Source: Rickettsiales bacterium
Lineage (GTDB): Bacteria; Pseudomonadota; Alphaproteobacteria; Rs-D84
DNA: 64,000 nt
Assembly: GCA_031265235.1 (NCBI GenBank)
Contig: JAISCX010000035.1
Coordinates: 16,839-80,838 of the forward strand
Direction: 5' to 3'
Shown here: piece after piece, positions 2,294 to 45,782 of the stretch
How the letters are laid out: the number at the start of each line of letters is the position of its first letter
How positions within the stretch are numbered: position 1 is the stretch's first letter
Notes under the pieces: model-generated
What the model was told of the DNA's origin: nothing
The model's database searches: none
What the model saw: only the letters and a program-made list of their open reading frames with translations
Program-made: the position numbers and the translations under genes

Positions 2294-2403
2294 AATCAAT
2301 TTCTATGGTCGTCTGCGTGCATTCACAGCCCCCGGTGTATGTTTAATACACGTCGGGTCTGATGAATCCACGCATTCGATTCATATAAATTAAGGAACTT
2401 GTT

Positions 2404-3144: not shown

Positions 3145-3731
3145 AATTCAAACTACTCTATTTCGGCGAGCTGCGCGTCAATCCGAAAAAACGCGCGCAG
3201 CATATCACGGACATTCGGATGAAATTTCATCCGCAATTGAAAAAATTGGTGGAACATTCCCCGTGGAACAATCTTCAAAAATACATGATGCCCGCCCCGT
3301 CGAAATCGCCGGTCAACACGCGGCATGTCGGCGGAATCGATTTTAATCCGATCATCACGCCCGCGTTGAAGCTGCTTTGCGAATTGGACGTGCAGCTGTT
3401 GCATCCGGAGGTTGTCGGAATCGCCCGCGCGGATATCGATAACCGCATGAAGACGCTGCTGGATGCGCTGCGCTGTCCGCAGAACGAGCATGAGATAGGC
3501 GAAAACCAGCCAAAGGGAATTGGGCCGGTTTATACCCTTCTGGACGACGACCATTTGGTGACCAGATTGTCGGTGAATACTTCGCATTTTCTTGCGCCCA
3601 ATATGTTTGATGTTGACGCGACGGAAAATGCCCCGGTGTCGATAGAACAGGAAGAACGCATTTTCGCAATGATAGATGTGAATGTGCGCGTGGAAGAGGG
3701 GACGCTTGAAAATTTACCATTCATGGTGTGA
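3141..3731 (+). CDS. hypothetical protein (translationally coupled to the upstream secreted protein)
   Basis: 196-aa ORF with a 4-nt ATGA overlap with the preceding ORF. No recognisable domain; it contains an R-x5-H stretch (RCPQNEH) but this is weak. Confidence 0.5.
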   Translation: MKFKLLYFGELRVNPKKRAQHITDIRMKFHPQLKKLVEHSPWNNLQKYMMPAPSKSPVNTRHVGGIDFNPIITPALKLLCELDVQLLHPEVVGIARADIDNRMKTLLDALRCPQNEHEIGENQPKGIGPVYTLLDDDHLVTRLSVNTSHFLAPNMFDVDATENAPVSIEQEERIFAMIDVNVRVEEGTLENLPFMV

Positions 3732-3826
3732 TAAAATTGTCAAAACGCACCGTCTGCCTTGCGTTCGCAATACGCAGCATCCGGCACATTTTGACAATTT
3801 TATCCGCAGGGCGAGGAATATAGAAG

Positions 3827-4165
3827 ATGAATCCATCAACAAAACAAGTTATAACAGACGTTATAAAATACAAAGGCAAGAATTTTGCCGTACTTTATGC
3901 GATAGAAGAATTTGCGGAACTGACCAAAGAATTATTAAAAGATATAAACCGTCACAAAGATAACATTGATGATATTTTTGAAGAAGTGGCGGACGTCAGT
4001 GTCATTATGGAATACCTTAAATTGATTTATAATATATCAGATGATAAAATCTGGGATTATCTGAATAAAAAAATGCCGGAAAAGTGGGCGCCGCGCATTG
4101 AAAAATGGAAAGCCCGCGTTGCTGATACCGGAAATCCGGATGCAAATAAGAGAATCTTGGATTGA
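3827..4165 (+). CDS. MazG-like nucleotide pyrophosphohydrolase (small single-domain type)
   Basis: 112 aa with EEFAELTKEL and EEVADVSVIMEYLKL, matching the MazG EExxE/EExxD helix pair. A GAGG-type RBS lies upstream. Confidence 0.65.
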   Translation: MNPSTKQVITDVIKYKGKNFAVLYAIEEFAELTKELLKDINRHKDNIDDIFEEVADVSVIMEYLKLIYNISDDKIWDYLNKKMPEKWAPRIEKWKARVADTGNPDANKRILD

Positions 4166-4833
4166 TAAACTTGGATGCGGAATTCTTTTTTGATTTGGAA
4201 CGGCGGTTGAAAGCCGCAGGTTTGGATTCCGATTCAGAAAGTTTTGACGTTATAAAAGAACGCCTGTCGCACAAAGAGCATTTGTCCGCGAATGAATTCG
4301 CGCGCCAGGCAATATATGTAATTCTCGCCGGCGGGTTTTCCCAAAAAACCGCAAAGGTGATTCATGGCAAGGTTATGGATTATATTGAAAAAAATCCGTC
4401 GGCCAGCCATGACCAGATGTTTGGCGATCTGATAAAAACTTTCAATAACAAAAACAAAATCAACGCGGTTATAAAGATTTGGCAGAACAGGCAACAATAT
4501 AGGGATGATTATTATGCGATAAACGGTTCGTTGGAACAAAAATTGGCATACATTGTAAAGTTGCCGCATATTGGAAAAATCACCGCGAACCATCTGGCGC
4601 GGAATCTGGGCGAGGACGTTGTAAAATACGATATATGGATCCAGCGTCTTGGCGTTGTCTTTTCCGGACGTGATTTATGGGACAAGATAGATAATGGCGA
4701 TCTTGATCCACAAGTAAAAGCCGCATGCGACGAAATGTTCGCGCATCTGGCGCGCGAAACAGGTCTGCCCCGCGGATATATCGATGTCGTGTTGTGGAAA
4801 GCATGTCAGAACCATATGATAGAAGGGTTATGA
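4162..4833 (+). CDS. HhH-type DNA glycosylase-like protein (AlkA/Tag-like helix-hairpin-helix)
   Basis: Putative TTG start overlaps the MazG stop. LPHIGKITANHLARNLG is an HhH motif followed by an Asp (KYDIW). The C-terminus has YIDVVLWKACQNH, similar to the AlkA C-terminus. Confidence 0.5.
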   Translation: MINLDAEFFFDLERRLKAAGLDSDSESFDVIKERLSHKEHLSANEFARQAIYVILAGGFSQKTAKVIHGKVMDYIEKNPSASHDQMFGDLIKTFNNKNKINAVIKIWQNRQQYRDDYYAINGSLEQKLAYIVKLPHIGKITANHLARNLGEDVVKYDIWIQRLGVVFSGRDLWDKIDNGDLDPQVKAACDEMFAHLARETGLPRGYIDVVLWKACQNHMIEGL

Positions 4834-8451: not shown

Positions 8452-8546
8452 CGCGAAAACCAATAAGGAATATTAAAATAAACGGTGCGGGTCGCCGTGA
8501 CATGACCGGACCGGTTTAGTTCGGCAGACCCAACTTTTCACAAAGA

Positions 8547-9095
8547 CTATCTGTATGAAACCTTGTGATTAACTAATTCACATGACCCAAGCTTTTTGTC
8601 GTTATGGACATCCAGGTTATTTATATCCTCTTTGCCCAGCGCGACGCCCAGTAAAAAATAGTGGTGTCGAAAAGGCGCGCCAAAAATATCGAAAAGATTT
8701 TCATAAGTATCAAATAAAGCGTTTGCCCAGTCCTCGTGGTCTTGCTGCTCTAAGCTTGCCAATTCTATAAAAAAAGTTTTTATCTTTGCGCATCGGTTTT
8801 CGTTTTTATGCGCGGCGCAGTATATGTTATCAAAGTCCAAGGGCATTTTTTCAATCTTTCTTATATCAAAGTATCCGGTTTCTTCAATCAATTCACGAAT
8901 GGCGGAAACCATCGGATTTTCATTATCTTCAATTCCACCTTGAACCAAAACATTCCAACCAAATTTCTTATTGCTTAGATACAAATATTTATCTTCTGAC
9001 GGGTGCTTGACCACAACCATGATGGAATCACGTTCCACTGTTTTCATTGATGGATTCAATTTATTTTCATCGATGCTTTCAATTATTGGAATCAT
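8547..9095 (-). CDS. NUDIX hydrolase
   Basis: Nudix box GGIEDNENPMVSAIRELIEETG (GX5EX7REUXEEXGU). The start is taken at MIPIIES with an AAGAGG RBS; the longer ORF to 9167 lacks an RBS. Confidence 0.75.
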   Translation of the reverse strand: MIPIIESIDENKLNPSMKTVERDSIMVVVKHPSEDKYLYLSNKKFGWNVLVQGGIEDNENPMVSAIRELIEETGYFDIRKIEKMPLDFDNIYCAAHKNENRCAKIKTFFIELASLEQQDHEDWANALFDTYENLFDIFGAPFRHHYFLLGVALGKEDINNLDVHNDKKLGSCELVNHKVSYR

Positions 9096-9229
9096 TATAA
9101 AACCTCTTATATTGAACCATTGGAATTTATCGAACGCGCGCATGCTTTGCAAAACCAATGCTATCAAAGGAAATCCAACTTTTCAAGAAAATCTGTGATA
9201 TAATACAACCTGAGCGAGGAGCAGTTGAA

Positions 9230-9802
9230 ATGAAGCTGTATCACGGAACAGATAAAGAGATTCAAGCAGGCGAATATTTAAATCCCCAAAAAAATTGGAT
9301 CGATGGGAAAGAAGAAAAAGAAAAGACGCATGCCGTTTTTGCAACCCCGCTGTTAAACTGGGCTCAGTGCTTTGCTTTTTGCAGGGCTGTGGAGAAAGGC
9401 CTATGCAAAATAAGCCCTATGGATACAGGATTTTTAATCGTATCAAACAACTGCTTGCCGTTTGACGATGCAAAAGATACAAAAATATTTGTATATGAAT
9501 TGCCGACCAAAGGATTTGCACGTTCTAATCCGGAAAAGAAAGGCGGCGTTGAAGAATATATTTCGCACGGTCCTGTAAAAGTTATGCAAACGGTTGCCGA
9601 AACAACGGTTGGGGAATTATTAAAGTCAGGTTATATAAAATTATATACTGTTCCGGACGAAATAATGAAGCAGACGTGGGGTAATAAAAACATAAAAGCA
9701 GCAGATATAATAAATAATCCGGAATACAATGCGCAAATTTATTATGACTTTAACAAGGCATTATTTATGCAGCAAGCAGTTATGATTAAAGACCGAATAT
9801 AA
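9230..9802 (+). CDS. hypothetical protein (divergent from the NUDIX gene)
   Basis: The start MKLYHGTDKE is preceded by a GAGGAG RBS. No confident domain assignment. Confidence 0.5.
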   Translation: MKLYHGTDKEIQAGEYLNPQKNWIDGKEEKEKTHAVFATPLLNWAQCFAFCRAVEKGLCKISPMDTGFLIVSNNCLPFDDAKDTKIFVYELPTKGFARSNPEKKGGVEEYISHGPVKVMQTVAETTVGELLKSGYIKLYTVPDEIMKQTWGNKNIKAADIINNPEYNAQIYYDFNKALFMQQAVMIKDRI

Positions 9803-15407: not shown

Positions 15408-15631
15408 TTGCGTTTGCGTGATAATGCGTCAAATCGACGCAAAGACGGCCCCTCGTGTATTTCAATACACGTCGGGCCCGTTTTCATGCCACCTTGCCGC
15501 ATTCTGACGCAAACGCGTCATTTGTATGGTGTATTTTTTCATACTTGTATTTTTAACATATTCGGCATATAATCCAATCGGAATTTAACATTCCGGCAAC
15601 GGGGCCTGATAACCCTTAATACAATGAAATA

Positions 15632-15738
15632 CCCTGCCTAGGGCGGGAGAATGGCGAAATATCCAATACGCCATGCCATTTCCATTGTGTTAGTGGTATC
15701 AGTCTCCCGCCATCTTTTTCAAAGATGGTTTTTTTAAC
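15632..15738 (+). ncRNA. sRNA candidate 1 (stem-enclosed, ends in intrinsic terminator)
   Basis: GGGCGGGAGA...TCTCCCGCC is a long-range stem. The terminator is ccatcttt-ttc-aaagatgg followed by T7. Confidence 0.35.
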
Positions 15739-15745
15739 AAAAAAC

Positions 15746-15845
15746 TTGGGCAGGAGGCCGATGAAATATGTTGAATACATCGGGCTACGATCTTGGTAGA
15801 TTGAACCTCCTGCCACTTTTGATTTTCAAAGGTGGTTTTTTATAT
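15746..15845 (+). ncRNA. sRNA candidate 2 (paralogue of candidate 1, ends in intrinsic terminator)
   Basis: GGGCAGGAGG...CCTCCTGCC is the enclosing stem. It shares the GAAATAT...AATAC core with candidate 1. The terminator is ccacttttg-atttt-caaaggtgg followed by T6. Confidence 0.35.
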
Positions 15846-15863
15846 AACCCAAGGAAGGATTAA

Positions 15864-16034
15864 ATGTTTACAAAATTTGCAACATATAAAGAAGTCAGGG
15901 AAATGGTTGAAAACAATCTGCAAAATGATATTGCAATAGACTTTATCATGAAATATATTTTTGAGACCAGAAAAAGAATTAAAAATCTTTTAAAAGAATT
16001 GGAATCTTTGAAAGACCCAGAAAAAATCGATTAG
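15864..16034 (+). CDS. small hypothetical protein (56 aa; below ORF-track cutoff)
   Basis: ATG at 15864 preceded by an AAGGAAGG RBS at a spacing of 5 nt. Translation MFTKFATYKEVREMVENNLQ...KDPEKID. Confidence 0.4.
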   Translation: MFTKFATYKEVREMVENNLQNDIAIDFIMKYIFETRKRIKNLLKELESLKDPEKID

Positions 16035-32583: not shown

Positions 32584-32604
32584 AACCAAGCTTTTTGTTG
32601 TCGC

Positions 32605-32678
32605 GGGCGTAGTCCAATGGTAGAATGCAAGCCTTCCAAGCTCGAGACGCGGGTTCGATTCCCGCCGCCCGCACCACC
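32605..32678 (+). tRNA. tRNA-Gly (anticodon TCC)
   Basis: Acceptor GCGGGCG/CGCCCGC, anticodon loop CTTCCAA and T-arm GCGGG-TTCGATT-CCCGC with an encoded CCA. Very similar to E. coli tRNA-Gly(UCC). Confidence 0.9.
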
Positions 32679-32775
32679 AATTTTCGTTAATGGCGAAGCC
32701 TTTAAGAAAATTGAGTGCCGCGCCATAGCGCAAGCGAAGGCAGGCAGGTTGATCAAACAAAGCAAATTTTTCCAA

Positions 32776-32861
32776 GGGCGTGCGCCGGAGTCGGAGAGCC
32801 GGGGCAGACTGTAAATCTGTTGTCTTAGACTGAGATGGTTCGAATCTATCCACGCCCACCA
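32776..32861 (+). tRNA. tRNA-Tyr (anticodon GTA), type II with long variable arm
   Basis: Acceptor GGGCGTG/CACGCCC, D-stem CCGG/CCGG, anticodon stem GCAGA/TCTGT with loop CTGTAAA, a 13-nt variable arm and T-arm GATGG-TTCGAAT-CTATC. CCA is encoded. Confidence 0.88.
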
Positions 32862-32870
32862 AGATAAAAT

Positions 32871-32903
32871 ACCCGTCGCGACTGCGACGGGTATTATTGT
32901 TTT
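32871..32903 (+). terminator. rho-independent terminator after tRNA-Tyr
   Basis: acccgtcgcgactgcgacgggt followed by attattgtttt. Confidence 0.5.
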
Positions 32904-33097
32904 AATGGTTGTGGGCAGATTTGAACCATCGGCAAACGGCAAAGCCGCAACCCCGGCATCCCAGGCCCCGCCGCGAACAAAGTTCGCGGCGGGTGGGGAT
33001 GGCCGGGGGCAGCGGCGGATGGTTCGCGTATGAGTTGGGTTCTGCAATTGCGAAGCGATGGCGGAACCCTTACGAATGCTAACGCGCGAAGCGCGGA

Positions 33098-33235
33098 AGC
33101 CATCTATCCACGCCCACCACGTATTACAGACCTGTGAAAAACAGGTCTTTTTGTTTAGATTCATATACTCTTGAATGAGTTCTAATCTAGATTTTTCAAA
33201 GAAATGTTGATTTTTAGCCAGTTTTGAACTATTAT
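33098..33235. repeat. cassette-boundary repeat unit, copy 1 (starts with tRNA-Tyr 3'-end-like ccatctatccacgcccaccac)
   Basis: Shares ccaccacNtattacag-hairpin-tttttgtttagattNNtatactNttg...gagttc...ccagtttNgaactatt with copies at 34027 and 35120. Confidence 0.5.
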
Positions 33236-33258
33236 CGCAAAAAGCCAAAGGTTTTCCA

Positions 33259-33627
33259 ATGATACAGTATGAAATTTTAATAGATTTTATAGCATCGTTT
33301 GAAAAAATAAAATCAGGCAAGAAAACAGTAGAGATGCGTCTGGATAATGGGGATATTCCATTCCTGTCGTCAATTAAGATTAATGATACAATTTCTTTTA
33401 CAAACACGGAAAATAGCGAACGCATACAGACCAAAGTCATAGGTCTTTGTCGATTTAAGAGCTTTAACGCATTGGTTGAATTTCTAGGTGTTCAGCGCTG
33501 TCTTACAAATAGTGATAATCCACCAAAAGATATTGATGCTTATATGGAGTTATATTATCCACGCGAACAAATAGAAAGATGCGAAAAATTAGGTATTGTG
33601 ATAGATGTAAAAATGAGAGGCATGTAA
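33259..33627 (+). CDS. ASCH domain protein (YqfB-like)
   Basis: KSGKKTVEMR is a GxKxxExR ASCH motif. 122 aa, the size of the E. coli YqfB family. Confidence 0.7.
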   Translation: MIQYEILIDFIASFEKIKSGKKTVEMRLDNGDIPFLSSIKINDTISFTNTENSERIQTKVIGLCRFKSFNALVEFLGVQRCLTNSDNPPKDIDAYMELYYPREQIERCEKLGIVIDVKMRGM

Positions 33628-33995
33628 TGACACAACATGAAGTTTTAATAGATTTTCCTTGGGCATTTGAAAAAATCAAATCGGGTCAAAAGACCATAGA
33701 ACGCAGAATGTATGATGACAAGTTTCGCGCAATAAAAATTGGTGACACTATCTTGTTTGTAAATCTTGCGAATGGCGAAACCGTAACTTGTGATGTGAAA
33801 GGATTGTGCATTTTTCCAAATTACACAGAATTAATGAGAGTTGTTGATGCAAAAGCCTGTGGCTGGAACAAAGAAGATGAAGCGATACAAGACCCGGATG
33901 GGTTCATAGAAAGAAACTATGGGCAATTTGGCTATACAAAAGAAAATATCAAAAAATATGGCGCAGTGGGCATAGTTATTAAGCTTTGTTCATAA
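33627..33995 (+). CDS. ASCH domain protein (paralogue of upstream gene)
   Basis: Start MTQHEVLIDF overlaps the upstream stop (TAATG). KSGQKTIERR motif. About 35% identity to the neighbouring ASCH protein. Confidence 0.7.
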   Translation: MTQHEVLIDFPWAFEKIKSGQKTIERRMYDDKFRAIKIGDTILFVNLANGETVTCDVKGLCIFPNYTELMRVVDAKACGWNKEDEAIQDPDGFIERNYGQFGYTKENIKKYGAVGIVIKLCS

Positions 33996-34026
33996 AAGTT
34001 TGAATATTTTGTCCCAGTGTTATGAA

Positions 34027-34185
34027 TTCTTGCGGTGAATCAGTTCGAAACTTGTCGAAAGTCTTCCACCACTTATTACAGGTCGCAGAGAATGCGACCT
34101 TTTTGTTTAGATTTGTATACTTTTGGCTGAGTTCGAAGCTTATGTTTTGAAAAATGGCTAAAAATAAGCCAGTTTCGAACTATTT
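34027..34185. repeat. cassette-boundary repeat unit, copy 2
   Basis: gttcgaaacttgtcgaaagtcttccaccacttattacag-gtcgcagagaatgcgacc-tttttgtttagatttgtatacttttggctgagttcgaagc... Homologous to 33098-33235. Confidence 0.5.
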
Positions 34186-34995
34186 CAATTTTTGACACTG
34201 AATTATTCGTTGCGGATTTGTGAACCAAAAGTTCGTGCCGTCTGTATCAAAATGTGGTCGTTTTTCTTTTGGAACGGCCGCAATCATATCGCAAATGGCC
34301 TGTTGTTGCCCTGTATCAAAATGATACCTATTACGCATAGATTCGGCTGTAAAATCAAGACTACGAGAGTTCGGATTTGGTAAAAACTTTGCATTTTTAA
34401 AAACTTTCTTATGCATACCATAAAAATCTGCAATCGTATTCCAACGAACTGATTTCGGAAGAATTTTGTAGAACCTATTTTCCAAATCCGCTTCTGATGC
34501 AAGACGAAATGCGACTGAATAATTTATAAGATATCCACCAGGTTTTAATGCGCAAAAAGCTTGTTTTATTACTTGCTCTTGAGCCTGCTTTGTATCTTCA
34601 TAATGAAATGCCCCACGCATAAAAACAACATCAAAAAAATTATCAGCAAAAGGAATACTTTTATTATCCGCACAGAACCAGGTTATATCTGGCGCATCCT
34701 TTTTATTTTGTTGTATTAAATCGTCCTGACAATCAATCCCATAATACAGAACCGGCTGAAAGCCATTGCGTTCAGGCAGATTCAATTTTTGTTTTAGATT
34801 TTTAACAATTATCCCGGTCCCAGTCCCCATATCAAGAACGTGAATTATGGTATTTGGTTGATTATCCATTGATTCTATTGTGCGCTCTGAAATAGGATTT
34901 ACTATATCGGCGATAACTTTCGGTTCAGAAAAGAAACCGAAATTAGGATTTAGAAAGTTTTTACCTTCTGCGGTCGGATCTGTCTTTTTATCCAT
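34180..34995 (-). CDS. class I SAM-dependent methyltransferase
   Basis: Motif I VLDMGTGTGIIVKNL and post-motif LKPGGYLINYS. AAAGGGA RBS before MDKKTDP. Confidence 0.7.
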   Translation of the reverse strand: MDKKTDPTAEGKNFLNPNFGFFSEPKVIADIVNPISERTIESMDNQPNTIIHVLDMGTGTGIIVKNLKQKLNLPERNGFQPVLYYGIDCQDDLIQQNKKDAPDITWFCADNKSIPFADNFFDVVFMRGAFHYEDTKQAQEQVIKQAFCALKPGGYLINYSVAFRLASEADLENRFYKILPKSVRWNTIADFYGMHKKVFKNAKFLPNPNSRSLDFTAESMRNRYHFDTGQQQAICDMIAAVPKEKRPHFDTDGTNFWFTNPQRIIQCQKLK

Positions 34996-35119
34996 TTTAT
35001 TCCCTTTCATTCCCAGACTTGGATTAAACATTACGAAACCTATTTTGTCCAAATTATATAACTATAATTGATCTTGTCAATCTAACGCCTGGAAATTTTA
35101 TGACGTTTGTTTTTGAAAT

Positions 35120-35245
35120 TTAGGATACTCTGTGCCAAACTCTGAAAGTTTTAAGGGTTCTGAGTTCAAGACTTGTCAAATCTCTTCCATCATAATAAAC
35201 AAACGCACCTTTTGGGTGCGTTTTATTCCAACTGTTTCCCATCGC
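35120..35245. repeat. cassette-boundary repeat unit, copy 3 (modules in swapped order)
   Basis: tttgtttttgaaatttaggatactctgtgcc...gttcaagacttgtcaaatctcttccatcat...acaaacgcaccttttgggtgcgtttt. Confidence 0.45.
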
Positions 35246-35276
35246 TTTGGCGGCGGCGTGCAAGCCGCGGCTTTTT

Positions 35277-36929
35277 TTATCTGGTCGTGACGGTCACGCT
35301 GTCCATGTATGTCTTTTCGATCGTGTCCATCTGGTATGGCTGAAAGTTCGGATCGGACATAATCGAAATATCCGAATCATCTTCGGGCAGTATATAAATA
35401 GGCGACATTTGCGGCGATACGGGCGCCGCGGCCGATGCGCCGGACAATCTGTATGTCTTTGCGGAATACTGGCCCGCCAATGATTTTGGCAGCGATATGT
35501 AATCCATCGGGTTTATGCCGTTCGTTATTTCAATTTCCGACGGACGCCGGCTGTCCGCGGCTGTCGTGTTGTATAACGGGTTTATAAAGTTCCGGGCGGC
35601 CGGTGCTTTGACCTTGGGTGCGCCGCTGCCGTCAAGGCGCATGATTTGCAGCGCGCGTTCGTCCGCGCCGTTCGGACGCAGCCGCACAAGCCCGTCCAGC
35701 CCCTTGAATCCGGACGGATCCAGCAGATACGCCGCCAGGCTTTTGCTTGAAGACAAAGCGCCGATGGAAAGCATCGCCGCATCATATCCCATGGAATTCA
35801 TGCGGTTCGGCGCGACCCCCATCAAGTCCGTGTATGTCCGCGCGAAATCCAAAGAAATGGACGGCAGCGCCGCGTATTCCGCGCCATTCAGCGTCATGTC
35901 GGAAAACATGCTGTCCGCGTCCCACATCGCCGTTCCGTAAAATCTGATCGTGTTTGTTGGCACGTCGTAATAACGCAAAAATGACGCCAGTGCCTTGGAA
36001 TCAGCGGCATTGCCCAGGAACAGGACGGCGTCATACGGCAGTTTTCCGACGGTGTCCGATTTGTTCAGCGCTTCCAATTGTTTGTTGATGTATGCTTTTT
36101 CGACCGACGGCAGCTGCTTTTTCAAAAGAATGTCGGACAATATCTCTTTGGCGCCGTTGTTCGCCTTTTCCCGCGGACCAAACATTGACGCGCGTTCGGC
36201 CACTGATTTTTGGCTGCCCATGTCGCCTTCGTCATAGTAATACATGCCGGTCACGCGCATATTGTTAATATATGCCGATTCAAGCGCGGCATTGGCAAGC
36301 ATGTATCCCGTCTTTGTATCGGGGCTTAATATCAATATGTTTGATGCGCCCGCGGCCGCCATGTGGCTGGTCACCGCCTCGGCCCCTTGGTTCGGCAACA
36401 GCGCGAGCGTAAAGACGCCGCCGCTTAGCGCCGTTTGGTCGGACGTGAACGTTATCGCAGGAATCGCGTCAGGCTTTAACCCGCGCAATATTTCGACGTC
36501 TTCGGCGAATATGGGTCCAAGAATCATATCCGGGTTGCGGGATATCACATGTTCCGCGACCGCGATTTTTTTCGCCCGATCGCCCGACATATCGTTAAAC
36601 GCGACCATTACGCCATTCGGCTGTTTTTGAAAGAACGCGATTTCTATCGCATGCTGGATGCCCTGGCCGATTGCGGCGTTGGGACCCGACAGCGGCAAAA
36701 GCACCGCCACGGTTTTTATGTTTTCCGAAAATGCGTCCGGTTCTTCGAATGACACCAGGGCCGCGGATTCATGGCCTTCGTCGTAAAAATCCTGGTCGAT
36801 TGCGGCAGGCGCGCCGGCTGGCGGCAGTTCGCCGTATTCATATCCCCAATCGCGGTTATGATTGGCACAGCCAATCAGAAAGAACAAAGAACAAATAGCG
36901 CACAGCAAAGATATTTTTTTAATAAACAT
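35277..36929 (-). CDS. lpoA: LppC/LpoA-family lipoprotein (penicillin-binding protein activator-like, periplasmic-binding-protein fold)
   Basis: Lipobox LFFLIGC. VAVLLPLSGPNAAIGQGIQHAIEIAF is PBP-type-I-like. Divergent from rsmI as in the E. coli rsmI-lpoA arrangement. Confidence 0.65.
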   Translation of the reverse strand: MFIKKISLLCAICSLFFLIGCANHNRDWGYEYGELPPAGAPAAIDQDFYDEGHESAALVSFEEPDAFSENIKTVAVLLPLSGPNAAIGQGIQHAIEIAFFQKQPNGVMVAFNDMSGDRAKKIAVAEHVISRNPDMILGPIFAEDVEILRGLKPDAIPAITFTSDQTALSGGVFTLALLPNQGAEAVTSHMAAAGASNILILSPDTKTGYMLANAALESAYINNMRVTGMYYYDEGDMGSQKSVAERASMFGPREKANNGAKEILSDILLKKQLPSVEKAYINKQLEALNKSDTVGKLPYDAVLFLGNAADSKALASFLRYYDVPTNTIRFYGTAMWDADSMFSDMTLNGAEYAALPSISLDFARTYTDLMGVAPNRMNSMGYDAAMLSIGALSSSKSLAAYLLDPSGFKGLDGLVRLRPNGADERALQIMRLDGSGAPKVKAPAARNFINPLYNTTAADSRRPSEIEITNGINPMDYISLPKSLAGQYSAKTYRLSGASAAAPVSPQMSPIYILPEDDSDISIMSDPNFQPYQMDTIEKTYMDSVTVTTR

Positions 36930-38429: not shown

Positions 38430-41222
38430 GTGTCGGCGAATAACATTTTTTGCGCAAGCAACCCGGCAAAGATTGTCGACGCGCTGTGGCAGGTTCTGAC
38501 AAATAAAATCTCGGCGCGTGAAAGCGCGACGGATGATTTTTCCAACGATATAATTTTTTTGCCCAGCCGCCGCGCCGTCGGAACCGTTGAAAGGATGATT
38601 GCCGAAAAGACGGGCGCGGCCGTATTGCTGCCGCGGCTTGTCGCGCTTGGGGAAGAAGCCGAAGATGACGGGCCGCAAGAAGATAAATCTGAAAAAGGCG
38701 GCCCGGGCGCGCCGGTATCGAATCTTGAACGCGCGGCTGTCCTGGCAAAAATGCTGACCGCGCACATGGACGGCGGAATAGCCGGGACACTGCCGGTTGC
38801 GAAAGATCTGGTTCGGACGATGGATTATCTGGAAAACGAAAGGAACGCGGACCGGAAAACAGAAATAAACTGGTCTGAATTGGTTTGCGAGAAATACGCC
38901 GTGCATTTCCGGGACAAGGCGCGGTTCTTGGATTTGGCATGCAGGGCTTTGCCCCTTGTATTTCCAGGAAGAGAGACTGTCGCGCAAAAACGCAACAAGG
39001 ACGTTCGCGGCTGGATCGAATATCTGAATAAGCACAAATCACGAATAATTGTATGCGGATCAACCGGCTCGGTGCCCGCGACTGCGGACCTGATGGAATA
39101 TATCGCGGGGCGCGCTAATGGATATATTATTCTTCCTGGAAAGATAAACGAGATCCGAGATACGTTGTGCGAGATCCGAGATACAAATCCGTATTATTCT
39201 GAAATGAAGTTTCTTGAACGGATTTGTGTCATGCCAACTGATGTTCAAACGATTGATGTTGGCGAATCCGCCATAGGTTTTTTCAATTCAGCTTTTGATA
39301 ATAATACAAATCACAGATCACAAATAACAAATCACGACGCGCGTTTCACGCGCGTCGACTGTGCCCGCGAAGCGGAAGAAATGGAGACTGTCGCCGAAAT
39401 CGCAAAGGACGCCGCATCAAGCGGCAAGACCGTTCTGATCGTATCCCCGGACAAGGCCGCGGCGCAGCGGCTGCGGGAATCATTGATTATGCGATCCGTG
39501 GAATTTGACTTTTCCATCGGGATGTCCGGCGGATCGACAAAGCTGGGAAGACTTGTTTTGAACATGCTGGATGAGGGAAAAGGGAAAAGGGATGGGGGAA
39601 AAGGATATGTGCGGGACATTTGCGCTGAATACAAAAAAACGGGCGATTTGTTTGGGGCCGTCCAGAATATGGTTGAAGATTATGTGTCATCCCGGGCGCC
39701 GCTTTGCGGCGACCCGGTATCTTGTCAGGACCAGGGACTAGAAGATGTTCAAAATAACGAAGATTCCGATTATCTCCAGAATGACAAGATCCCGGGTTCC
39801 GCTTCGCGGCCCCGGGATGACACAAATCGCCACTCACAAATCACCCATCACGATATAACATCCGAAGAATCTCTGGCGGTTTGGGACGCCGTTCGCGAAG
39901 TTTCGGATATCATAAAAAATAACAGGCTTGAACTGTCAAAGCCCGATTTGCGCGGACTGGTCGCGGAAGCGTTAGATACGGTGAATATCAGGCCGCCGGG
40001 AAAGGAAGGCTGTCCCGTCTGCATTCTTGGCACAATCGAATCGCGAATGCAGACGGCGGACGTCGTGATTTTAACCGGGCTTAATGAAAACATGTTTCCG
40101 GCGACGGGTTATGAAAATCCCTGGCTGCCGCGGCGCGTATGCGACGCGCTGGGCATGCCGCCGCCCGAACGAAAAGTGTCTTTGATGGCGATGGATTTTA
40201 TTACGCTTTCCTGCGGGGGGGATGTTTATTGGACGCGGTCAAAGACATCGGGCGGATATGACACGACGGAATCGCGATTTCTGTCGCGGGTAAGTGTGAA
40301 AGAAAACAAGGGCAAGGAAATTCTTATTGATGACGGTTCCGAATGGCTTGCGCGGGTTCGCGCCCGCGACAGTGTGCCGCTGCGTCCTTTGGATTATTTA
40401 GCGCCAAAACCAAACGCCGATTGGTCGGATGTTTTTGTGACGGAATTGGAACTGCTGGTTCATAATCCGTATGCTTTTTATGCCAGACATATATTGCGCC
40501 TGAGACCATCGCCGGATCCGTGGGATGACGCATCCGCGATTGATTTCGGAAATATCGTGCACGAGGCGATAAAGGAATTGACGATATCCGAAAAGGACAC
40601 GCAATGTCGCGACATTATCGAAATACTTAAACAGAAAGCGAAAGAAAAGCTGGAACCCGGCAGCATTCTGTTTCATTTCTGGGATGCGCGCTTTAAAGAA
40701 ATGGCGCCGTTGGTAAAAGAATTTATAGACGAGGCTAAAAGCGACGACGTTGTGTGGTCTGCCGCGGAAGACGCGGCCACGGGCGTTGTTGAAATCGCGG
40801 GCCGAAATGTTCGCGCCAAGGCGGATTGCGTTTATGTAAAGAGGGAAGAGGGAAGAGGGAAGAGGGAAGAAATCGGTTGTGCCATAGATATAAAAACCGG
40901 AAGGGTGCCTTCGAATTCTCAATTAGATAACGGCATGATGCCGCAGCTGCCGTTAGAGGCATATATGCTGAAAAATAAAAAGTTTACCGGGCAAAACGTT
41001 TTGCCCGCGCGCGTCGTTATGAAGTTCCTGCAACTTTCCCGCGGAAAATGCGGCGTGATTGAATATGCGGGCGAAGACTTGGATAATAAAATCGGCGCGG
41101 CGATCGCCAAGACGACCGAATTGTTCAATATGTATTCCGCGGGCGGCAAGGCGTATGAGTATCGCGAAACAGGGGACGATAAATACAAGGCATACGACGA
41201 TCTGGCGCGGGCGTGGGATTAG
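38430..41222 (+). CDS. addB: double-strand break repair nuclease AddB-like (alphaproteobacterial type) riddled with in-frame repeat insertions
   Basis: IIFLPSRRAV...LLPRLVALG resembles the AddB N-terminus and TVLIVSPDKAAAQRLRESL is AddB-like. The C-terminal block AKADCVYV...AIDIKTGR is PD-(D/E)XK-like. Inserts include EGKGKRDGGKG, KREEGRGKREE and an RPE-like copy. Confidence 0.5.
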   Translation: MSANNIFCASNPAKIVDALWQVLTNKISARESATDDFSNDIIFLPSRRAVGTVERMIAEKTGAAVLLPRLVALGEEAEDDGPQEDKSEKGGPGAPVSNLERAAVLAKMLTAHMDGGIAGTLPVAKDLVRTMDYLENERNADRKTEINWSELVCEKYAVHFRDKARFLDLACRALPLVFPGRETVAQKRNKDVRGWIEYLNKHKSRIIVCGSTGSVPATADLMEYIAGRANGYIILPGKINEIRDTLCEIRDTNPYYSEMKFLERICVMPTDVQTIDVGESAIGFFNSAFDNNTNHRSQITNHDARFTRVDCAREAEEMETVAEIAKDAASSGKTVLIVSPDKAAAQRLRESLIMRSVEFDFSIGMSGGSTKLGRLVLNMLDEGKGKRDGGKGYVRDICAEYKKTGDLFGAVQNMVEDYVSSRAPLCGDPVSCQDQGLEDVQNNEDSDYLQNDKIPGSASRPRDDTNRHSQITHHDITSEESLAVWDAVREVSDIIKNNRLELSKPDLRGLVAEALDTVNIRPPGKEGCPVCILGTIESRMQTADVVILTGLNENMFPATGYENPWLPRRVCDALGMPPPERKVSLMAMDFITLSCGGDVYWTRSKTSGGYDTTESRFLSRVSVKENKGKEILIDDGSEWLARVRARDSVPLRPLDYLAPKPNADWSDVFVTELELLVHNPYAFYARHILRLRPSPDPWDDASAIDFGNIVHEAIKELTISEKDTQCRDIIEILKQKAKEKLEPGSILFHFWDARFKEMAPLVKEFIDEAKSDDVVWSAAEDAATGVVEIAGRNVRAKADCVYVKREEGRGKREEIGCAIDIKTGRVPSNSQLDNGMMPQLPLEAYMLKNKKFTGQNVLPARVVMKFLQLSRGKCGVIEYAGEDLDNKIGAAIAKTTELFNMYSAGGKAYEYRETGDDKYKAYDDLARAWD
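39686..39821. mobile_element. RPE-like palindromic element, copy B (in-frame within addB)
   Basis: tgtcatcccgggcgccgctttgcggcgacccgg...cccgggttccgcttcgcggccccgggatgaca, the same architecture as copies A and C. Confidence 0.7.
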
Positions 41223-41525
41223 AGTAAGAGGGTGAAAGAGCTTATTTAATTTCATAATTCACTACTTTCTTACTCTTCTACTCTCCTACTCTTAATAAAA
41301 AATACTTCGTGCTAAAAAACACAACTCGCAGACACAAAGGCTTTGCGGGTTATTTCTTGGAATCGCCAAAATCCTATGTAGCATGCCCAGACAGCCCCAA
41401 ACACCCATAAAAACCGCTTTTGGTAGATTTATTTACTATGGATTATTTTTATATATTTTGCTAAAATTATCGTTGTCCTTTATAAAGGACAAGTAATATA
41501 TAACCAAATATTTTAGGAAAAAATT

Positions 41526-42368
41526 ATGATCGACCCAAGAATTGAACAAATGTTTACGCCTGGACTTTTGGAAGAATACGATATTCTTAAAATCGCACTA
41601 ACATATTATGACGAGTTAGAGGCATCTTGCCAAAAGCCCATATCGGAATATGTCGCCAAAAATCCAAACCAATCGGACTATAAAGTTATAGAGGCGGGCT
41701 TTGGGACATTTATCACGACCAATAATATCTTGGCGGCTGGCGATAAAATATCTGTATATGCTTTTGACCCAGATATAGGCATGTTCAAGAACGCTATTAG
41801 AACTTTTCTTGAATGGAAAAATAAGTCGGGAGGTTTTACAAAAGTTGGAACGAATGAACGGGATTTAATAGACCTTGCCGATAGCGATATTGATTTTGCT
41901 AAAACTAAGTGTGTAGCGTATTTTGACCGCAATTCGTTTATGAAAGTGATAGTATTTTGTGATAAGATTCAAGACGGATTAAAATTATATTCTGATGGTT
42001 ATTTTGACGGTTTTGCGTCGGGCTTTATGTTGCATAATCTAACCCCTGAACAAAGAACAGATATATTTCCATATATATCCAAAGTCATAAAGTCGGGTGG
42101 ATTTTATGTAAATGTGGACAAGTATGCGGTGGATGATGACGCGAAACATAAAGAAGAATATAATGCTGAAATCGTGTTGCTGGACAAATTGGAGCAAAAT
42201 GGATATCCGCAAGTAAAACAGGAATGGATTGACCATTACGAAAAAGACGACACTATCAAATTCACTCACGCAGAACAGCAAAAATTGCTGTCCGATAACG
42301 GATTTTCAGAACCAATAAATCTATTTAAAGAATTGTTATCTGAAACATTTTCGGCGACTAAAAAATAA
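41526..42368 (+). CDS. SAM-dependent methyltransferase-like protein (AT-rich, likely acquired)
   Basis: VIEAGFGTFITTNNILAAG is a motif I-like segment and MLHNLTPEQRTDIFPYISKVIKSGGFYVN follows. Flanked by similar hairpins (ttgtcctttataaaggacaa; gtttgtccattataatggacaaac). Confidence 0.5.
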   Translation: MIDPRIEQMFTPGLLEEYDILKIALTYYDELEASCQKPISEYVAKNPNQSDYKVIEAGFGTFITTNNILAAGDKISVYAFDPDIGMFKNAIRTFLEWKNKSGGFTKVGTNERDLIDLADSDIDFAKTKCVAYFDRNSFMKVIVFCDKIQDGLKLYSDGYFDGFASGFMLHNLTPEQRTDIFPYISKVIKSGGFYVNVDKYAVDDDAKHKEEYNAEIVLLDKLEQNGYPQVKQEWIDHYEKDDTIKFTHAEQQKLLSDNGFSEPINLFKELLSETFSATKK

Positions 42369-42571
42369 AATTGCTATTCGTTTGTCCATTATAATGGACA
42401 AACACTACATTGACTTGTTCGGTGTATGTATTGGATATGTAGCAATCTCTATGTAGCGTAGCGAATAGTTGGGATGTCTGCAAACTGCCTCAATCTGCAC
42501 CCGTTTGACCCGAAATAACCTCAAATGACCCGCCAAATGGGAACTATAAAAAACGGCGCAAAGCGCCGTTT

Positions 42572-45059: not shown

Positions 45060-45782
45060 ATGAAAATAGTTGCGATTGGCGGCGGTCAAAACGGCAGAAA
45101 GAAAACCATGCCGGACGGAACGGTAAAGCAATACCCTTTTGACAATGTGCCTATAAATAAAAAGATTATTGAATTATCAGGTAAGAAAAATCCTAATTTG
45201 CTGTTGCTTGGGACTGCTGGTCGTGATGTGGTGTCATTCACGGATTACTTGGCAGACCATTTCAAGTCTCTTGGTGCAAATGTTTCGGAATTGAAACTGG
45301 CGGAAAACAACCCGACAGAGGCGGAAATGAGAAAAATTTTAGATAAAACAGATATCGTTTATGCAGGCGGCGGAGACACTTTGATTCTGATGAATCGTTG
45401 GCGTGAAACAGGTTTTGACAGACTGTTGAAAGAATACGGCGACCAGGGGGTTGTTCTTTCGGGATTGTCCGCCGGTGGGATATGTTGGTTTGACTATTAT
45501 GACAACGATGAATATATTGACGGAGATATGTCAAAACTGGATTTTCTGCCGGGACTTGGGTTTATCAAAGGATTTGCAGTTCCGCATTATGACGATAAAA
45601 CGCCGGAAGAAAAGAAATTGTTTGATAACTTGCTTGTTAAGAAAGGTGTCGTTGGATATGGAATTGATAATAATGCCGCGATAATTTTTGATAATGGAAA
45701 AATGTCCATCATGTCCAGCCAGCCAAATGTCGGAATACATTATTTGAATACGCCTAAACAAAACATGAAAGAACGTGGGTAA
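45060..45782 (+). CDS. peptidase S51 family (dipeptidase E-like)
   Basis: YAGGGDTLILMNRWRETG...LSGLSAGGICWFD aligns with PepE GGGNTF...GWSAGAN. Confidence 0.7.
   Translation: MKIVAIGGGQNGRKKTMPDGTVKQYPFDNVPINKKIIELSGKKNPNLLLLGTAGRDVVSFTDYLADHFKSLGANVSELKLAENNPTEAEMRKILDKTDIVYAGGGDTLILMNRWRETGFDRLLKEYGDQGVVLSGLSAGGICWFDYYDNDEYIDGDMSKLDFLPGLGFIKGFAVPHYDDKTPEEKKLFDNLLVKKGVVGYGIDNNAAIIFDNGKMSIMSSQPNVGIHYLNTPKQNMKERG

What the first reader, a model, noticed from the sequence alone, without database searches (positions are those of the whole stretch)
32605..35250. tRNA-Gly/tRNA-Tyr-adjacent cassette islet: tandem ASCH proteins and a SAM methyltransferase bounded by repeated att-like units
Directly after tRNA-Tyr, a ~100-130-nt repeat unit recurs three times (33098-33235, 34027-34185, 35120-35245). 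The unit is ccaccacNtattacag, then a GC hairpin, then tttttgtttagattNgtatact...gagttcgaa. The first copy begins with an 18-nt duplicate of the tRNA-Tyr 3' end (atctatccacgcccacca). The units bracket two cassettes. One holds two paralogous ASCH-domain proteins (YqfB-like; that family includes an N4-acetylcytidine amidohydrolase). The other holds an oppositely oriented class I SAM methyltransferase. The pattern suggests serial site-specific integration at the tRNA, each event leaving a boundary scar, but no integrase is present in the window. ASCH plus methyltransferase hints at a modified-nucleoside or nucleic-acid processing function.
Basis: partly seen in the sequence, partly recalled or inferred. 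Interest (0 to 1): 0.6.

Follow-up and report, generated by a model that had tools for sequence, protein, structure and literature searches.

The report
Integrase-less gene cassettes beside tRNA-Tyr
A 2.1-kb piece of foreign DNA beside a tRNA-Tyr gene in an uncultured Rickettsiales bacterium consists of two small gene cassettes whose repeated boundaries are the leftover ends of mobile elements driven by a large serine recombinase, a family found next to tRNA genes in many reduced-genome microbes and little described.

Summary
An AT-rich 2,073-bp block (33120-35192; 35% GC against about 49%) lies exactly after an 18-nt copy of the tRNA-Tyr 3' end. A relative with conserved synteny lacks it.

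The block holds two units, one with two ASCH-like genes and one with a SAM methyltransferase. Each unit has a left "R" module and a right "L" module.

The R module matches the 3' end of a roughly 500-aa large serine recombinase (LSR) gene plus its junction with a tRNA. This LSR family abuts tRNA 3' ends in Saccharibacteria, Dependentiae, Chlamydiae, Rickettsiales, gut Alphaproteobacteria and one Woesearchaeota-labelled MAG. The module contains a 51-bp dyad, here called M. Its arms co-vary across the family, and homology between units breaks at its outer arm.

No recombinase gene is in the window. The cassettes are best read as integrase-less derivatives moved in trans by an LSR, not by a tyrosine integrase.

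A near-identical ASCH gene lies in the same module at tRNA-Val in another genome, and methyltransferase homologues occur without ASCH, so the two cargoes are independent.

The 18-nt duplicate and its GC-rich spacer are also present in the cassette-free relative and remain unexplained.

The parts
32603..32676 (+). tRNA-Gly (TCC); host gene, conserved in relatives
   Evidence: ARAGORN; Rfam 64.9 bits; aligned with L117
32776..32861 (+). tRNA-Tyr (GTA); host gene whose 3' flank is the insertion hotspot
   Evidence: Relatives L116 and L117 have the same tRNA-Gly/tRNA-Tyr pair beside lpoA
32862..33101 (+). 'Unit 0' spacer: a terminator hairpin (32868-32895), an inverted pseudo-tRNA-Tyr 3' end (32897-32930), a GC-rich palindrome (32951-33008) and a conserved right end (33060-33101). 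It has host-like GC and is also present in a relative that lacks the cassettes
   Evidence: Inverted repeats I1, I7 and I9. The right end matches L117 closely (41 of 42 nt by eye) and the region is colinear with it. No Rfam match
33102..33119 (+). Exact 18-nt direct repeat of the tRNA-Tyr 3' end, from mid T-loop to CCA. The cassette block begins immediately after its CCA
   Evidence: (D12). L117 has the equivalent copy, 17/18 identical to its own tRNA
33120..33236 (+). R1 module: CGTATTACAG, a terminator hairpin (33130-33146), a T-run, and the degenerate dyad M1 (33179-33230). It is a non-coding relic of an LSR gene 3' end plus its junction
33259..33627 (+). ASCH-like ORF a (122 aa), cargo
   Evidence: PHROG 19935 E 6e-8; 39% identical to ORF b; no Pfam hit
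33627..33995 (+). ASCH-like ORF b (122 aa), cargo. It is 95% aa / 94% nt identical to a gene beside tRNA-Val in loci L002 and L003
33976..34071 (+). L1 module: a single M-arm-like site AGTTCGAAACT (34042-34052), then a pseudo-tRNA 3' end ending in CCACCA (34066-34071)
   Evidence: 65% match to 35098-35192; D8 and I3
34072..34184 (+). R2 module: CTTATTACAG, a terminator hairpin (34082-34098), a T-run, and dyad M2 (34131-34181; GTTCGAAG-N34-GTTTCGAACT)
34180..34995 (-). Class I SAM-dependent methyltransferase (271 aa), cargo. The substrate is unknown
   Evidence: Pfam Methyltransf_25 at 54.4 bits. 100% identical to an NCBI protein from a 'Rickettsiales bacterium' MAG, with homologues at 78, 70, 52 and 46% identity
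35098..35192 (+). L2 module: the site AGTTCAAGACT (35163-35173), then a pseudo-3' end ending in CCATCA (35187-35192). This is the right end of the inserted block
35193..35230 (+). Host DNA resumes with TAATAAAC and a terminator hairpin. It is orthologous to the sequence that directly follows the tRNA-3'-end copy in L117
   Evidence: alignment

Best explanation
Positions 33120-35192 are a 2,073-bp horizontally acquired block. It is inserted by site-specific recombination immediately after the CCA of a tRNA-Tyr 3'-end copy. The block is a tandem pair of integrase-less cassettes, ASCH x2 and a methyltransferase.

Each cassette carries the two ends of a family of integrative elements whose integrase is a ~500-aa large serine recombinase (LSR).
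- The left end (R module) supplies a terminator for the upstream tRNA. It also retains, as non-coding DNA, the last ~130 nt of the LSR gene, including a 51-bp dyad-symmetric element (M).
- The right end (L module) carries one M-arm-like site and a mimic of a tRNA 3' end that finishes in CCA.

Shown: the insertion, the module anatomy, homology of R to LSR gene ends, the tRNA linkage of the family, co-variation of the M arms, and the absence of a recombinase gene in the window.

Inferred: an LSR encoded elsewhere, in the same genome or on a co-resident element, recombines the L.R junction of a circular cassette with the CCA-proximal target. Successive events or co-mobilisation would then build the array. 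The crossover lies in or next to CCACCA.

The cargo genes are independent passengers, and their substrates are unknown.
For: Foreign insertion:
- GC is 35% against a window mean of 49%.
- With the block removed, the window is colinear with cassette-free relative L117. The junctions are ..CCACCA|CGTATTACAG on the left and ..CTTCCATCA|TAATAAAC on the right.
- A second relative, L116, has a different island at the same tRNA-Tyr.

Mobility of the module-plus-cargo design:
- An ASCH gene 94% nt identical lies directly after tRNA-Val in L002 and L003, with an R module on its left and a degenerate tRNA-Val 3' copy on its right.
- The 78%-identical methyltransferase homologue lies beside an R-type module and a tRNA-Pro 3'-end copy (L005). 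The 52% homologue lies between tRNA-Ser and tRNA-Lys in L007, where an R module follows tRNA-Lys.

Link to the LSR:
- The R-core pattern found 27 loci in GTDB genomes, against my estimate of about 0.5 by chance.
- In 12 of these loci the pattern lies in the 3' coding end of a 493-540-aa ORF. The five ORFs scanned all have Resolvase and Recombinase domains, and four also have Zn_ribbon_recom.
- In 17 of the 27 loci the pattern lies downstream of a tRNA on the same strand, in 13 of them at 81-83 nt.
- An independent protein-based scan found 446 relatives. In 39 of the 42 distinct loci that passed the dyad search, the dyad stands about 82 nt past the tRNA 3' end.

M is constrained at the nucleic-acid level:
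- Nine of 13 arm pairs change on both sides. There are 34 doubly changed cells against 10.1 +/- 2.6 in shuffles (0 of 500), and the slid controls are far lower.
- Homology between units collapses at, or within about 20 nt beyond, the outer arm.

No recombinase in the window: Pfam; LSR HMM on all six frames.
Against: - No LSR gene, circular junction or excision product was seen for this genome, so mobilisation in trans is inferred.
- Only 64 kb of a 122-kb contig was available.
- At the protein level the R modules are no longer recognisable as LSR (tblastn found nothing). Homology rests on the DNA alignment, position and orientation.
- The L.R junction is not a symmetric attP. M stays intact in integrated elements, so the true crossover site is not established.
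- The far ends of intact LSR elements were out of range, so the L module could not be tied to them.
- The ORF b flanks are much more diverged from L002 (about 65-77%) than the ORF itself (94%). The history therefore includes recombination finer than whole-cassette transfer.
- The nearest relative is only 61% identical at LpoA, so the timing of the insertion is loose.
Confidence: 0.7

Rival explanations
1. In-situ decay. Each unit was once an autonomous LSR-bearing element that integrated on its own, and later lost or replaced its recombinase gene. The repeats are dead scars, and the cassettes never moved without an integrase.
For: The R modules contain a non-coding relic of the LSR 3' end. Intermediate stages exist: L033 and L027b keep LSR remnants of about 100 codons.
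Against: The same truncation point, at or within about 20 nt beyond arm 2, recurs in at least 8 units with unrelated cargo in different genomes. An integrase-less ASCH unit occurs at two different tRNAs in two genomes with a 94%-identical gene. The M arms are better conserved than the interior in the relics.
Confidence: 0.2
2. Cassette exchange at the M dyad. M, and specifically its outer arm with the TTCGAA-type core, is itself a recombination site. The tRNA-proximal 'tail + M' acts as a resident platform, and bodies (LSR or cargo) are swapped in and out there, in the manner of an integron but driven by a serine recombinase.
For: Tail + M are 80-100% identical between units whose sequence beyond arm 2 is unrelated. 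L033 combines an L013-type M (100%) with an L010-type downstream segment (78%). The arms co-vary as expected for two half-sites read by one protein. The overall size of about 51 bp with terminal inverted arms resembles serine-integrase attP sites (from memory, e.g. Bxb1).
Against: The block in this window is bounded by CCA-type junctions, not by an M on its right side. M is intact in integrated elements. Typical LSRs do not recombine identical sites. Selection to retain M, combined with gene conversion, could mimic a sharp breakpoint.
Confidence: 0.15
3. Tyrosine-integrase or integron-like serial integration at the tRNA.
For: tRNA 3' ends are the classic targets of tyrosine integrases, and the array looks cassette-like.
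Against: No Phage_integrase domain was found in the window. The boundary module is homologous to serine recombinase gene ends. No attI/attC-type organisation is present. The cargo genes lie in both orientations.
Confidence: 0.04
4. A generic intergenic repeat (REP- or MITE-like) with vertically inherited genes.
For: The units are short, AT-rich and hairpin-containing.
Against: There are no other copies in 64 kb. Linkage to tRNA 3' ends elsewhere is strict. The block is absent from the syntenic relative. GC is anomalous.
Confidence: 0.02

Closest known systems
Dehalococcoides ssrA-specific genomic islands with the DsiB large serine recombinase (McMurdie et al. 2011, PMC3146451)
   Same: A ~540-aa CcrB-like serine recombinase lies on the reverse strand directly beside attL. 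The target is the 3' end of a tRNA-like gene. [quoted passage not shown] Islands are tandem, and some units lack the integration module and are read as cis-mobilisable elements.
   Different: Here the targets are many ordinary tRNA genes (Tyr, Val, Lys, Pro, Asn, Gln, Asp, Leu, Glu, Ser, Ala, Arg) in many phyla. The cassettes are 1 kb rather than 10-30 kb. The cassette block joins at CCA rather than mid T-loop. The co-varying M dyad and the read-through of the LSR ORF into the antisense tRNA are not described there. Sequence relatedness to DsiB was not tested.
SCCmec and pseudo-SCC elements mobilised by CcrAB at the 3' end of rlmH (orfX) (from memory, and as discussed in PMC3146451)
   Same: Serine-recombinase elements insert at the 3' end of a conserved gene. 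They form tandem composite arrays, and recombinase-less units are bounded by short direct repeats.
   Different: The target is a protein-coding gene, the recombinase pair is CcrA/CcrB, and the elements are much larger. No tRNA or terminator logic is involved.
CIMEs / accretion-mobilisation of integrative elements (review PMC5704250)
   Same: Units lacking an integrase but flanked by att sites lie in tandem at a tRNA or gene 3' end. They are proposed to move in cis or trans with a neighbour's recombinase.
   Different: Classical CIMEs belong to tyrosine-integrase ICE families, and an autonomous partner usually lies adjacent. None is in this window.
Tycheposon arrays in Prochlorococcus (bioRxiv 10.1101/2020.12.28.424599)
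   Same: Islands are built by successive integration beside tRNA genes, with partial tRNAs and degenerate elements pushed distally. A minority of elements (27 of 937) carry an LSR.
   Different: Those elements are mostly tyrosine-recombinase elements with replication modules. No shared module or dyad is known.
Integron gene cassettes
   Same: Cargo units of about 1 kb are each bounded by an imperfect inverted-repeat site and arranged in tandem next to a fixed platform.
   Different: Integrons use the tyrosine recombinase IntI, attI and attC sites with GTTRRRY cores, and a common promoter with one orientation. None of these features is present here.

Membership tests
Integrative element of the large-serine-recombinase (serine integrase) type | Encodes a Resolvase + Recombinase (+ Zn-ribbon) protein | tested here: not met
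   No such ORF is in the window (Pfam; LSR HMM on six frames). Related loci do have it. The window units are therefore derivatives, not autonomous members.
Integrative element of the large-serine-recombinase (serine integrase) type | Element ends homologous to those of recombinase-bearing members | tested here: met
   The R modules align with the LSR gene 3' end plus the tRNA junction, in the same strand and position. The L end could not be compared because the far ends were out of range.
Integrative element of the large-serine-recombinase (serine integrase) type | Insertion relative to an empty site at a specific target | tested here: met
   relative L117 lacks 33120-35192. The junction lies at the CCA of the tRNA-Tyr 3'-end copy.
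Integrative element of the large-serine-recombinase (serine integrase) type | attP x attB recombination with a defined 2-bp crossover; excision to a circle | not testable with these tools
   This needs read-level or experimental data.
Cis-mobilisable / integrase-less element (CIME, pseudo-SCC-like) | Flanked by att-type junctions with no recombination genes inside | tested here: met
   R and L modules lie at both ends of each unit. The cargo is only ASCH x2 or the methyltransferase.
Cis-mobilisable / integrase-less element (CIME, pseudo-SCC-like) | Tandem with, or mobilised by, an autonomous element using the same sites | tested here: inconclusive
   No autonomous element is in the 64 kb. LSR-bearing relatives occur in the same metagenome as the ASCH cassette (L047 and L003, both Ga0209737).
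Integron cassette array | IntI tyrosine recombinase, attI, and attC sites with RYYYAAC/GTTRRRY cores | tested here: not met
   No Phage_integrase hit. The dyad arms are GTTCGAA-type and are homologous to LSR coding sequence.
ASCH domain (PF04266) proteins | Significant match to the ASCH profile or fold | tested here: inconclusive
   ORF b scores 20.6 bits against a cut-off of 21.2. ORF a has no Pfam hit. PHROG 19935 gives E 4e-14 and 6e-8. PDB 2z0t (PH0355) gives E 4e-8. The proteins are probably members, below Pfam's own threshold.
YqfB-type N4-acetylcytidine amidohydrolase | Orthology to, or catalytic residues of, YqfB | not tested
There was no NCBIfam match, and no residue-level comparison was made.
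Class I SAM-dependent methyltransferase | Rossmann-type SAM-binding domain above the curated threshold | tested here: met
   Methyltransf_25 scores 54.4 bits (cut-off 27) and Methyltransf_11 scores 52.4. No specific equivalog was matched.

The most novel reading that the evidence does not exclude
The 'tail + M' module next to tRNA genes is a docking platform, and the M dyad (outer arm, TTCGAA-type core) is a second recombination site of this serine recombinase family. Together they would form a cassette-exchange system, functionally like an integron but built on a serine recombinase and on tRNA 3' ends. It would operate in CPR bacteria, one DPANN-labelled archaeal MAG, and obligate symbionts or parasites that otherwise have few known routes of gene gain. 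The recombinase would obtain its own C-terminal ~45 codons, and the antisense-tRNA tail, from the platform.
Probability: 0.15. Interest if true: 0.85.

Novelty: new variant of a known kind. Interest (0 to 1): 0.6.

Why it matters
Serine integrases have been regarded as not, or only rarely, using tRNA genes. A 2020 survey found 14 of 297 at t(m)RNA genes and called for experimental proof (PMC7192596). The only clear precedent found was tmRNA in Dehalococcoides.

This small islet led to a large family of tRNA-abutting serine recombinases: 446 relatives in one metagenome scan, and 27 hits in species-representative genomes. They span Saccharibacteria, Dependentiae, Chlamydiae, Rickettsiales, gut Alphaproteobacteria and one Woesearchaeota-labelled MAG. 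These are lineages with reduced genomes in which the routes of gene acquisition are poorly known.

The family has three unusual features:
- The recombinase ORF reads into the antisense of the tRNA.
- A terminator for the tRNA is embedded in the coding sequence.
- A 51-bp dyad has arms that co-vary at the expense of the encoded amino acids, and it survives in integrase-less 1-kb cassettes.

If the dyad is a recombination or control site, it defines a testable mechanism for minimal gene cassettes. It could also provide a new set of serine-integrase/att pairs for engineering.

Tried and rejected
- **Rfam.** Scans of the region and of related spacers found only the tRNAs. No tmRNA, ribozyme or sRNA family matched. 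A hammerhead-like reading of the L018/L025/L026 spacers was not supported.
- **First metagenome DNA pattern** (CCACNTATTACAG...GTTTYGAACTATT): 0 hits.
- **Viral contigs**: 0 hits, so there is no evidence that these are phage.
- **tblastn** of LSR C-termini against the window: nothing significant. The relic is detectable only at the DNA level.
- **PADLOC**: only a generic methyltransferase-domain hit (mad2). No defence system was called.
- **Hairpin fold of M as single-stranded DNA**: significant for R2 (z about -3) but not for R1 or L002, so a hairpin model is not established.
- **Extra arm copies or tRNA-end repeats within ~5 kb of intact LSR elements**: none convincing. The far ends are out of range.
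- **Serine-integrase half-site geometry.** The T-loop GTTCGAA lies 5 nt closer to CCACCA than the L-site does. I set this idea aside because the actual target in the window is the tRNA-end copy, which lacks a T-loop motif to its left.
- **Cargo homologues inside LSR loci**: none.
- **Exact-protein look-ups** of the window's own LpoA and methyltransferase: not on record, so the rest of the MAG could not be reached.
Full report
**1. What is in the sequence**

ARAGORN and Rfam place tRNA-Gly(TCC) at 32603-32676 and tRNA-Tyr(GTA) at 32776-32861. The last 18 nt of tRNA-Tyr, ATCTATCCACGCCCACCA, recur exactly at 33102-33119. That gives two matches in 64 kb against 0.02 expected.

From 33120 to about 35200, GC falls to 33-38%. 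The window mean is 49% with sd 5.6.

Self-comparison shows two kinds of repeat, not one:
- An "R" module: 33114-33233 against 34066-34184, 72% over 120 nt, E 1e-14.
- An "L" module: 33976-34071 against 35098-35192, 65% over 96 nt, E 2e-4.

The layout is therefore:

tRNA-Tyr | spacer | 18-nt copy . R1 | two ASCH-like ORFs | L1 . R2 | methyltransferase (minus strand) | L2 . host

**2. The genes**

- The methyltransferase (34180-34995) is a clear class I SAM enzyme (Methyltransf_25, 54 bits). It matches no specific equivalog.
- The two 122-aa ORFs are 39% identical to each other.
- Their ASCH assignment is below Pfam's threshold: 20.6 against 21.2 bits for ORF b, and no hit for ORF a. PHROG 19935 and the ASCH-fold protein PH0355, PDB 2z0t at E 4e-8, support it.
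- No defence-system model fits.

**3. Host and empty site**

The methyltransferase and the flanking LpoA are 100% identical to proteins of an NCBI "Rickettsiales bacterium" MAG on a 122-kb contig. A Logan contig from SRR14710921 reproduces 32959-35592 exactly.

The nearest LpoA relatives are only about 60% identical, but synteny is kept: rsmI-lpoA-[tRNA-Tyr, tRNA-Gly]-lolD-lolCE.

In relative L117, the order after tRNA-Tyr is a terminator, a spacer, an 18-nt copy of its own tRNA 3' end (17/18), a terminator, and then lpoA. There are no cassettes.

Deleting 33120-35192 from the window gives a sequence colinear with L117 from tRNA-Gly to lpoA. The block is therefore a 2,073-bp insertion. Its left junction is ...CGCCCACCA|CGTATTACAG and its right junction is ...CTTCCATCA|TAATAAAC.

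A second relative, L116, carries a different AT-rich island (a HAD hydrolase and two other ORFs) at the same tRNA-Tyr. The site is a hotspot.

**4. The cassette design recurs elsewhere**

- **ASCH.** A protein 95% identical to ORF b (94% at the DNA level) lies in L002 and L003 in an unrelated context, next to metG and queH. It directly follows tRNA-Val(GAC)...CACCCACCA|CTTATTACAG, hairpin...GAGTTCGAG-N-GTTTCGAACTATT, ORF. A degenerate copy of the tRNA-Val 3' end and a terminator follow the ORF.
- **Methyltransferase.** Its 78%-identical homologue (L005) lies beside an R-type module that follows an 18-nt copy of a tRNA-Pro 3' end, which is itself separated from tRNA-Pro by a GC-rich spacer.
- **Other loci.** L007 has the 52% homologue between tRNA-Ser and tRNA-Lys. 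There, an R module with different cargo follows tRNA-Lys.
- **Independence.** ASCH and the methyltransferase travel separately. Nothing supports a joint function.
- **Mosaicism.** The modules flanking ORF b are much more diverged from L002 (about 65-77%) than the ORF itself (94%), so there is mosaicism inside cassettes.

**5. What the R module is**

The conserved core of R is GTTCGAR-N12-AAAA-N18-GTTTCGAACT. It matched the window's R2, L002, L003 and L007.

Scanning one genome per species for this pattern gave 27 loci, against my estimate of about 0.5 by chance. They came from Saccharibacteria, gut Alphaproteobacteria (including Ca. Enterousia), Ca. Deianiraea, Dependentiae/Babeliales, Simkaniaceae and others.

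In 17 of the 27 loci the pattern lies downstream of a tRNA on the same strand. In 13 of them the distance from the tRNA 3' end is 81-83 nt.

In 12 loci the pattern lies inside the 3' end of a 493-540-aa ORF on the opposite strand. The ORF continues through the next 82 nt and into the antisense of the tRNA (W is antisense CCA; DSN is the antisense T-loop). Five of these ORFs were scanned. All five have Resolvase and Recombinase domains, and four also have Zn_ribbon_recom. They are large serine recombinases.

R modules align with these gene ends across the T-run, both arms and the interior. In the window the reading frame is broken, and tblastn finds nothing.

R is therefore the tRNA junction plus a non-coding relic of the LSR 3' end. 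The hairpin in it serves as the terminator of the upstream tRNA.

**6. The family and the M dyad**

A profile of seven LSRs, seeded on an N-terminal catalytic motif, found 446 relatives in metagenome contigs. Eighty loci were fetched. This seeding makes the set unbiased with respect to the 3' DNA.

Forty-two distinct loci passed a search for a tRNA on the antisense strand followed by an 8-nt inverted repeat (at most one mismatch) starting 70-96 nt past its 3' end. In 39 of them the repeat is the M dyad, beginning about 82 nt past the tRNA. The tRNAs are Gln, Asn, Pro, Asp, Leu, Glu, Ser, Ala and Arg.

The two arms change together. Examples:
- GTTCGAAAGTA / TACTTTCGAAC
- GTTCTGAAGT / ACTTCAGAAC
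- AAGTTCGCAAA / TTTGCGAACTT
- AAGTTCGGGAAT / ATTCCCGAACTT
- AAGTTCAAGAAT / ATTCTTGAACTT

The encoded residues change accordingly (SSK..FSN, SSE..LQN, RST..FSN), while the tRNA T-loop stays GGTTCGA(A/G)TCC.

On 30 distinct sequences, nine of 13 pairs show changes on both sides. There are 34 doubly changed cells against 10.1 +/- 2.6 in shuffles (0 of 500). Slid registers give 2-15. One-sided G.U-type intermediates are rare, which fits a DNA dyad at least as well as an RNA stem.

M is thus a cis element constrained at the nucleic-acid level. It is embedded in the recombinase gene and retained in integrase-less cassettes.

Among alphaproteobacterial units, tail + M are 80-100% identical while sequence beyond the outer arm is unrelated. 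L033 combines one M type with another unit's downstream sequence. In a few units homology runs about 20 nt past the arm.

**7. No recombinase here**

Thirty-five window ORFs scanned with Pfam show no Phage_integrase, Resolvase, Recombinase or transposase domain. An HMM of the LSR family finds nothing in any frame. The largest ORFs were not scanned with Pfam.

**8. Interpretation**

The best-supported reading has four parts:
- The islet is a tandem pair of integrase-less cassettes derived from LSR-type elements that target tRNA 3' ends.
- It was inserted by site-specific recombination at a CCA-terminated target.
- It depends on an LSR supplied in trans.
- Each unit brings its own terminator for the upstream tRNA.

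The steps that are shown and those that are inferred are listed under Best explanation.

The closest published system is the Dehalococcoides ssrA islands with the CcrB-like DsiB. Those have a reverse-strand LSR at attL, insertion at the T-loop with a 20-bp repeat, tandem islands, and units without integration modules read as cis-mobilisable elements.

A 2020 survey stated that serine integrases were not known to target tRNA genes. It found 14 of 297 at t(m)RNA genes and asked for experimental proof. My literature searches found no description of this family.

**9. What remains unexplained**

*(a) "Unit 0".* This is the terminator, the GC-rich spacer and the exact 18-19-nt tRNA-end copy that begins mid T-loop.
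- It is also present in the cassette-free relative. Its right end matches L117 closely (41 of 42 nt by my count), although the hosts are only about 60% identical at LpoA.
- The copy tracks each host's own tRNA.
- Analogous units precede LSR relics at tRNA-Pro loci (L005, L018, L025, L026).
- Three of those spacers are homologous to one another and contain hairpins that look compensated.
- Unit 0 may be the far arm of a T-loop-type element, a minimal non-coding element, or a structured RNA. Rfam has no match.

*(b) The role of M.* It stays intact in integrated elements, yet it marks a recombination breakpoint.

*(c) The exact crossover.* It has not been located.

**10. Verdict**

The mobile-cassette interpretation is right in outline but wrong on the enzyme class and on the origin of the 18-nt duplicate.

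The islet itself is a modest example of a known phenomenon: integrase-less units in a tRNA-linked array. The family it belongs to is widespread and little described, and it has unusual, testable features.

Noticed in passing
window 32862-33119; L117 7720-7860 (minus strand); L005 1012-1217; L018 ~4237-4420; L025 ~3930-4097; L026 ~470-545: A recurring 'unit 0' lies between a tRNA and the first cassette or LSR relic. It consists of a terminator, a GC-rich 100-240-nt spacer, and an exact 18-19-nt copy of that tRNA's 3' end starting mid T-loop. The window and L117 spacers match closely at their right end (41 of 42 nt by my count) although the hosts are only ~60% identical at LpoA. The L018, L025 and L026 spacers are homologous to one another and contain hairpins that look compensated. 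Rfam has no match.
   Followed up: partly
L036-L115 (for example L037, L056, L068, L113), about +82 to +132 nt past the tRNA 3' end: A 51-bp dyad lies inside the 3' coding region of the serine recombinase genes. Its 10-12-nt arms co-vary and override the encoded amino acids. The recombinase ORFs also read through the antisense of the tRNA 3' end, and a terminator hairpin for the tRNA lies inside the coding sequence.
   Followed up: yes
L116 7650-10480: A relative (GCA_009777955.1) has a different AT-rich 2.8-kb island between the same tRNA-Tyr and lpoA. It carries a HAD hydrolase, a 193-aa ORF and a 332-aa ORF. The tRNA-Tyr flank is therefore a hotspot in this lineage.
   Followed up: partly
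window ~2300-3000, 3600-4100, 8500-9700, 15500-16000, 41100-42400, 45300-45700: Other islets with GC of 40% or less lie in a ~49% GC window. Several contain ORFs with no Pfam match (for example 2404-3144 and 41526-42368). None shares the R or L modules, and none is next to a tRNA.
   Followed up: no
window 33627-33995 against L002 424-792: The ASCH ORF is 94% identical at the DNA level between two genomes, but the flanking modules are only ~65-77% identical. Identity starts about 3 nt before the ATG. This implies recombination at the level of the gene inside cassettes.
   Followed up: partly
window 32940-33050: A GC-rich ~58-nt palindrome (32951-33008, with a core of 12 perfect pairs) and its flanks are present in the window's spacer but absent from the orthologous spacer of L117. 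This is a secondary insertion of a palindromic element.
   Followed up: no
L006 230-480 and 940-1761: A 70%-identical methyltransferase homologue has host-like GC and overlaps acpS, with no tRNA and no modules. It looks like a fixed, ameliorated copy. About 2.5 tandem copies of a ~77-nt unit lie upstream.
   Followed up: no
L027 372 and 6690; L033 6993 (the same contig, JAZSQL010000050.1): At least three copies of the tail + M module (96-100% identical in M) lie several kb apart next to tRNA-Pro in one gut alphaproteobacterial MAG. This is a longer array of the same kind.
   Followed up: partly
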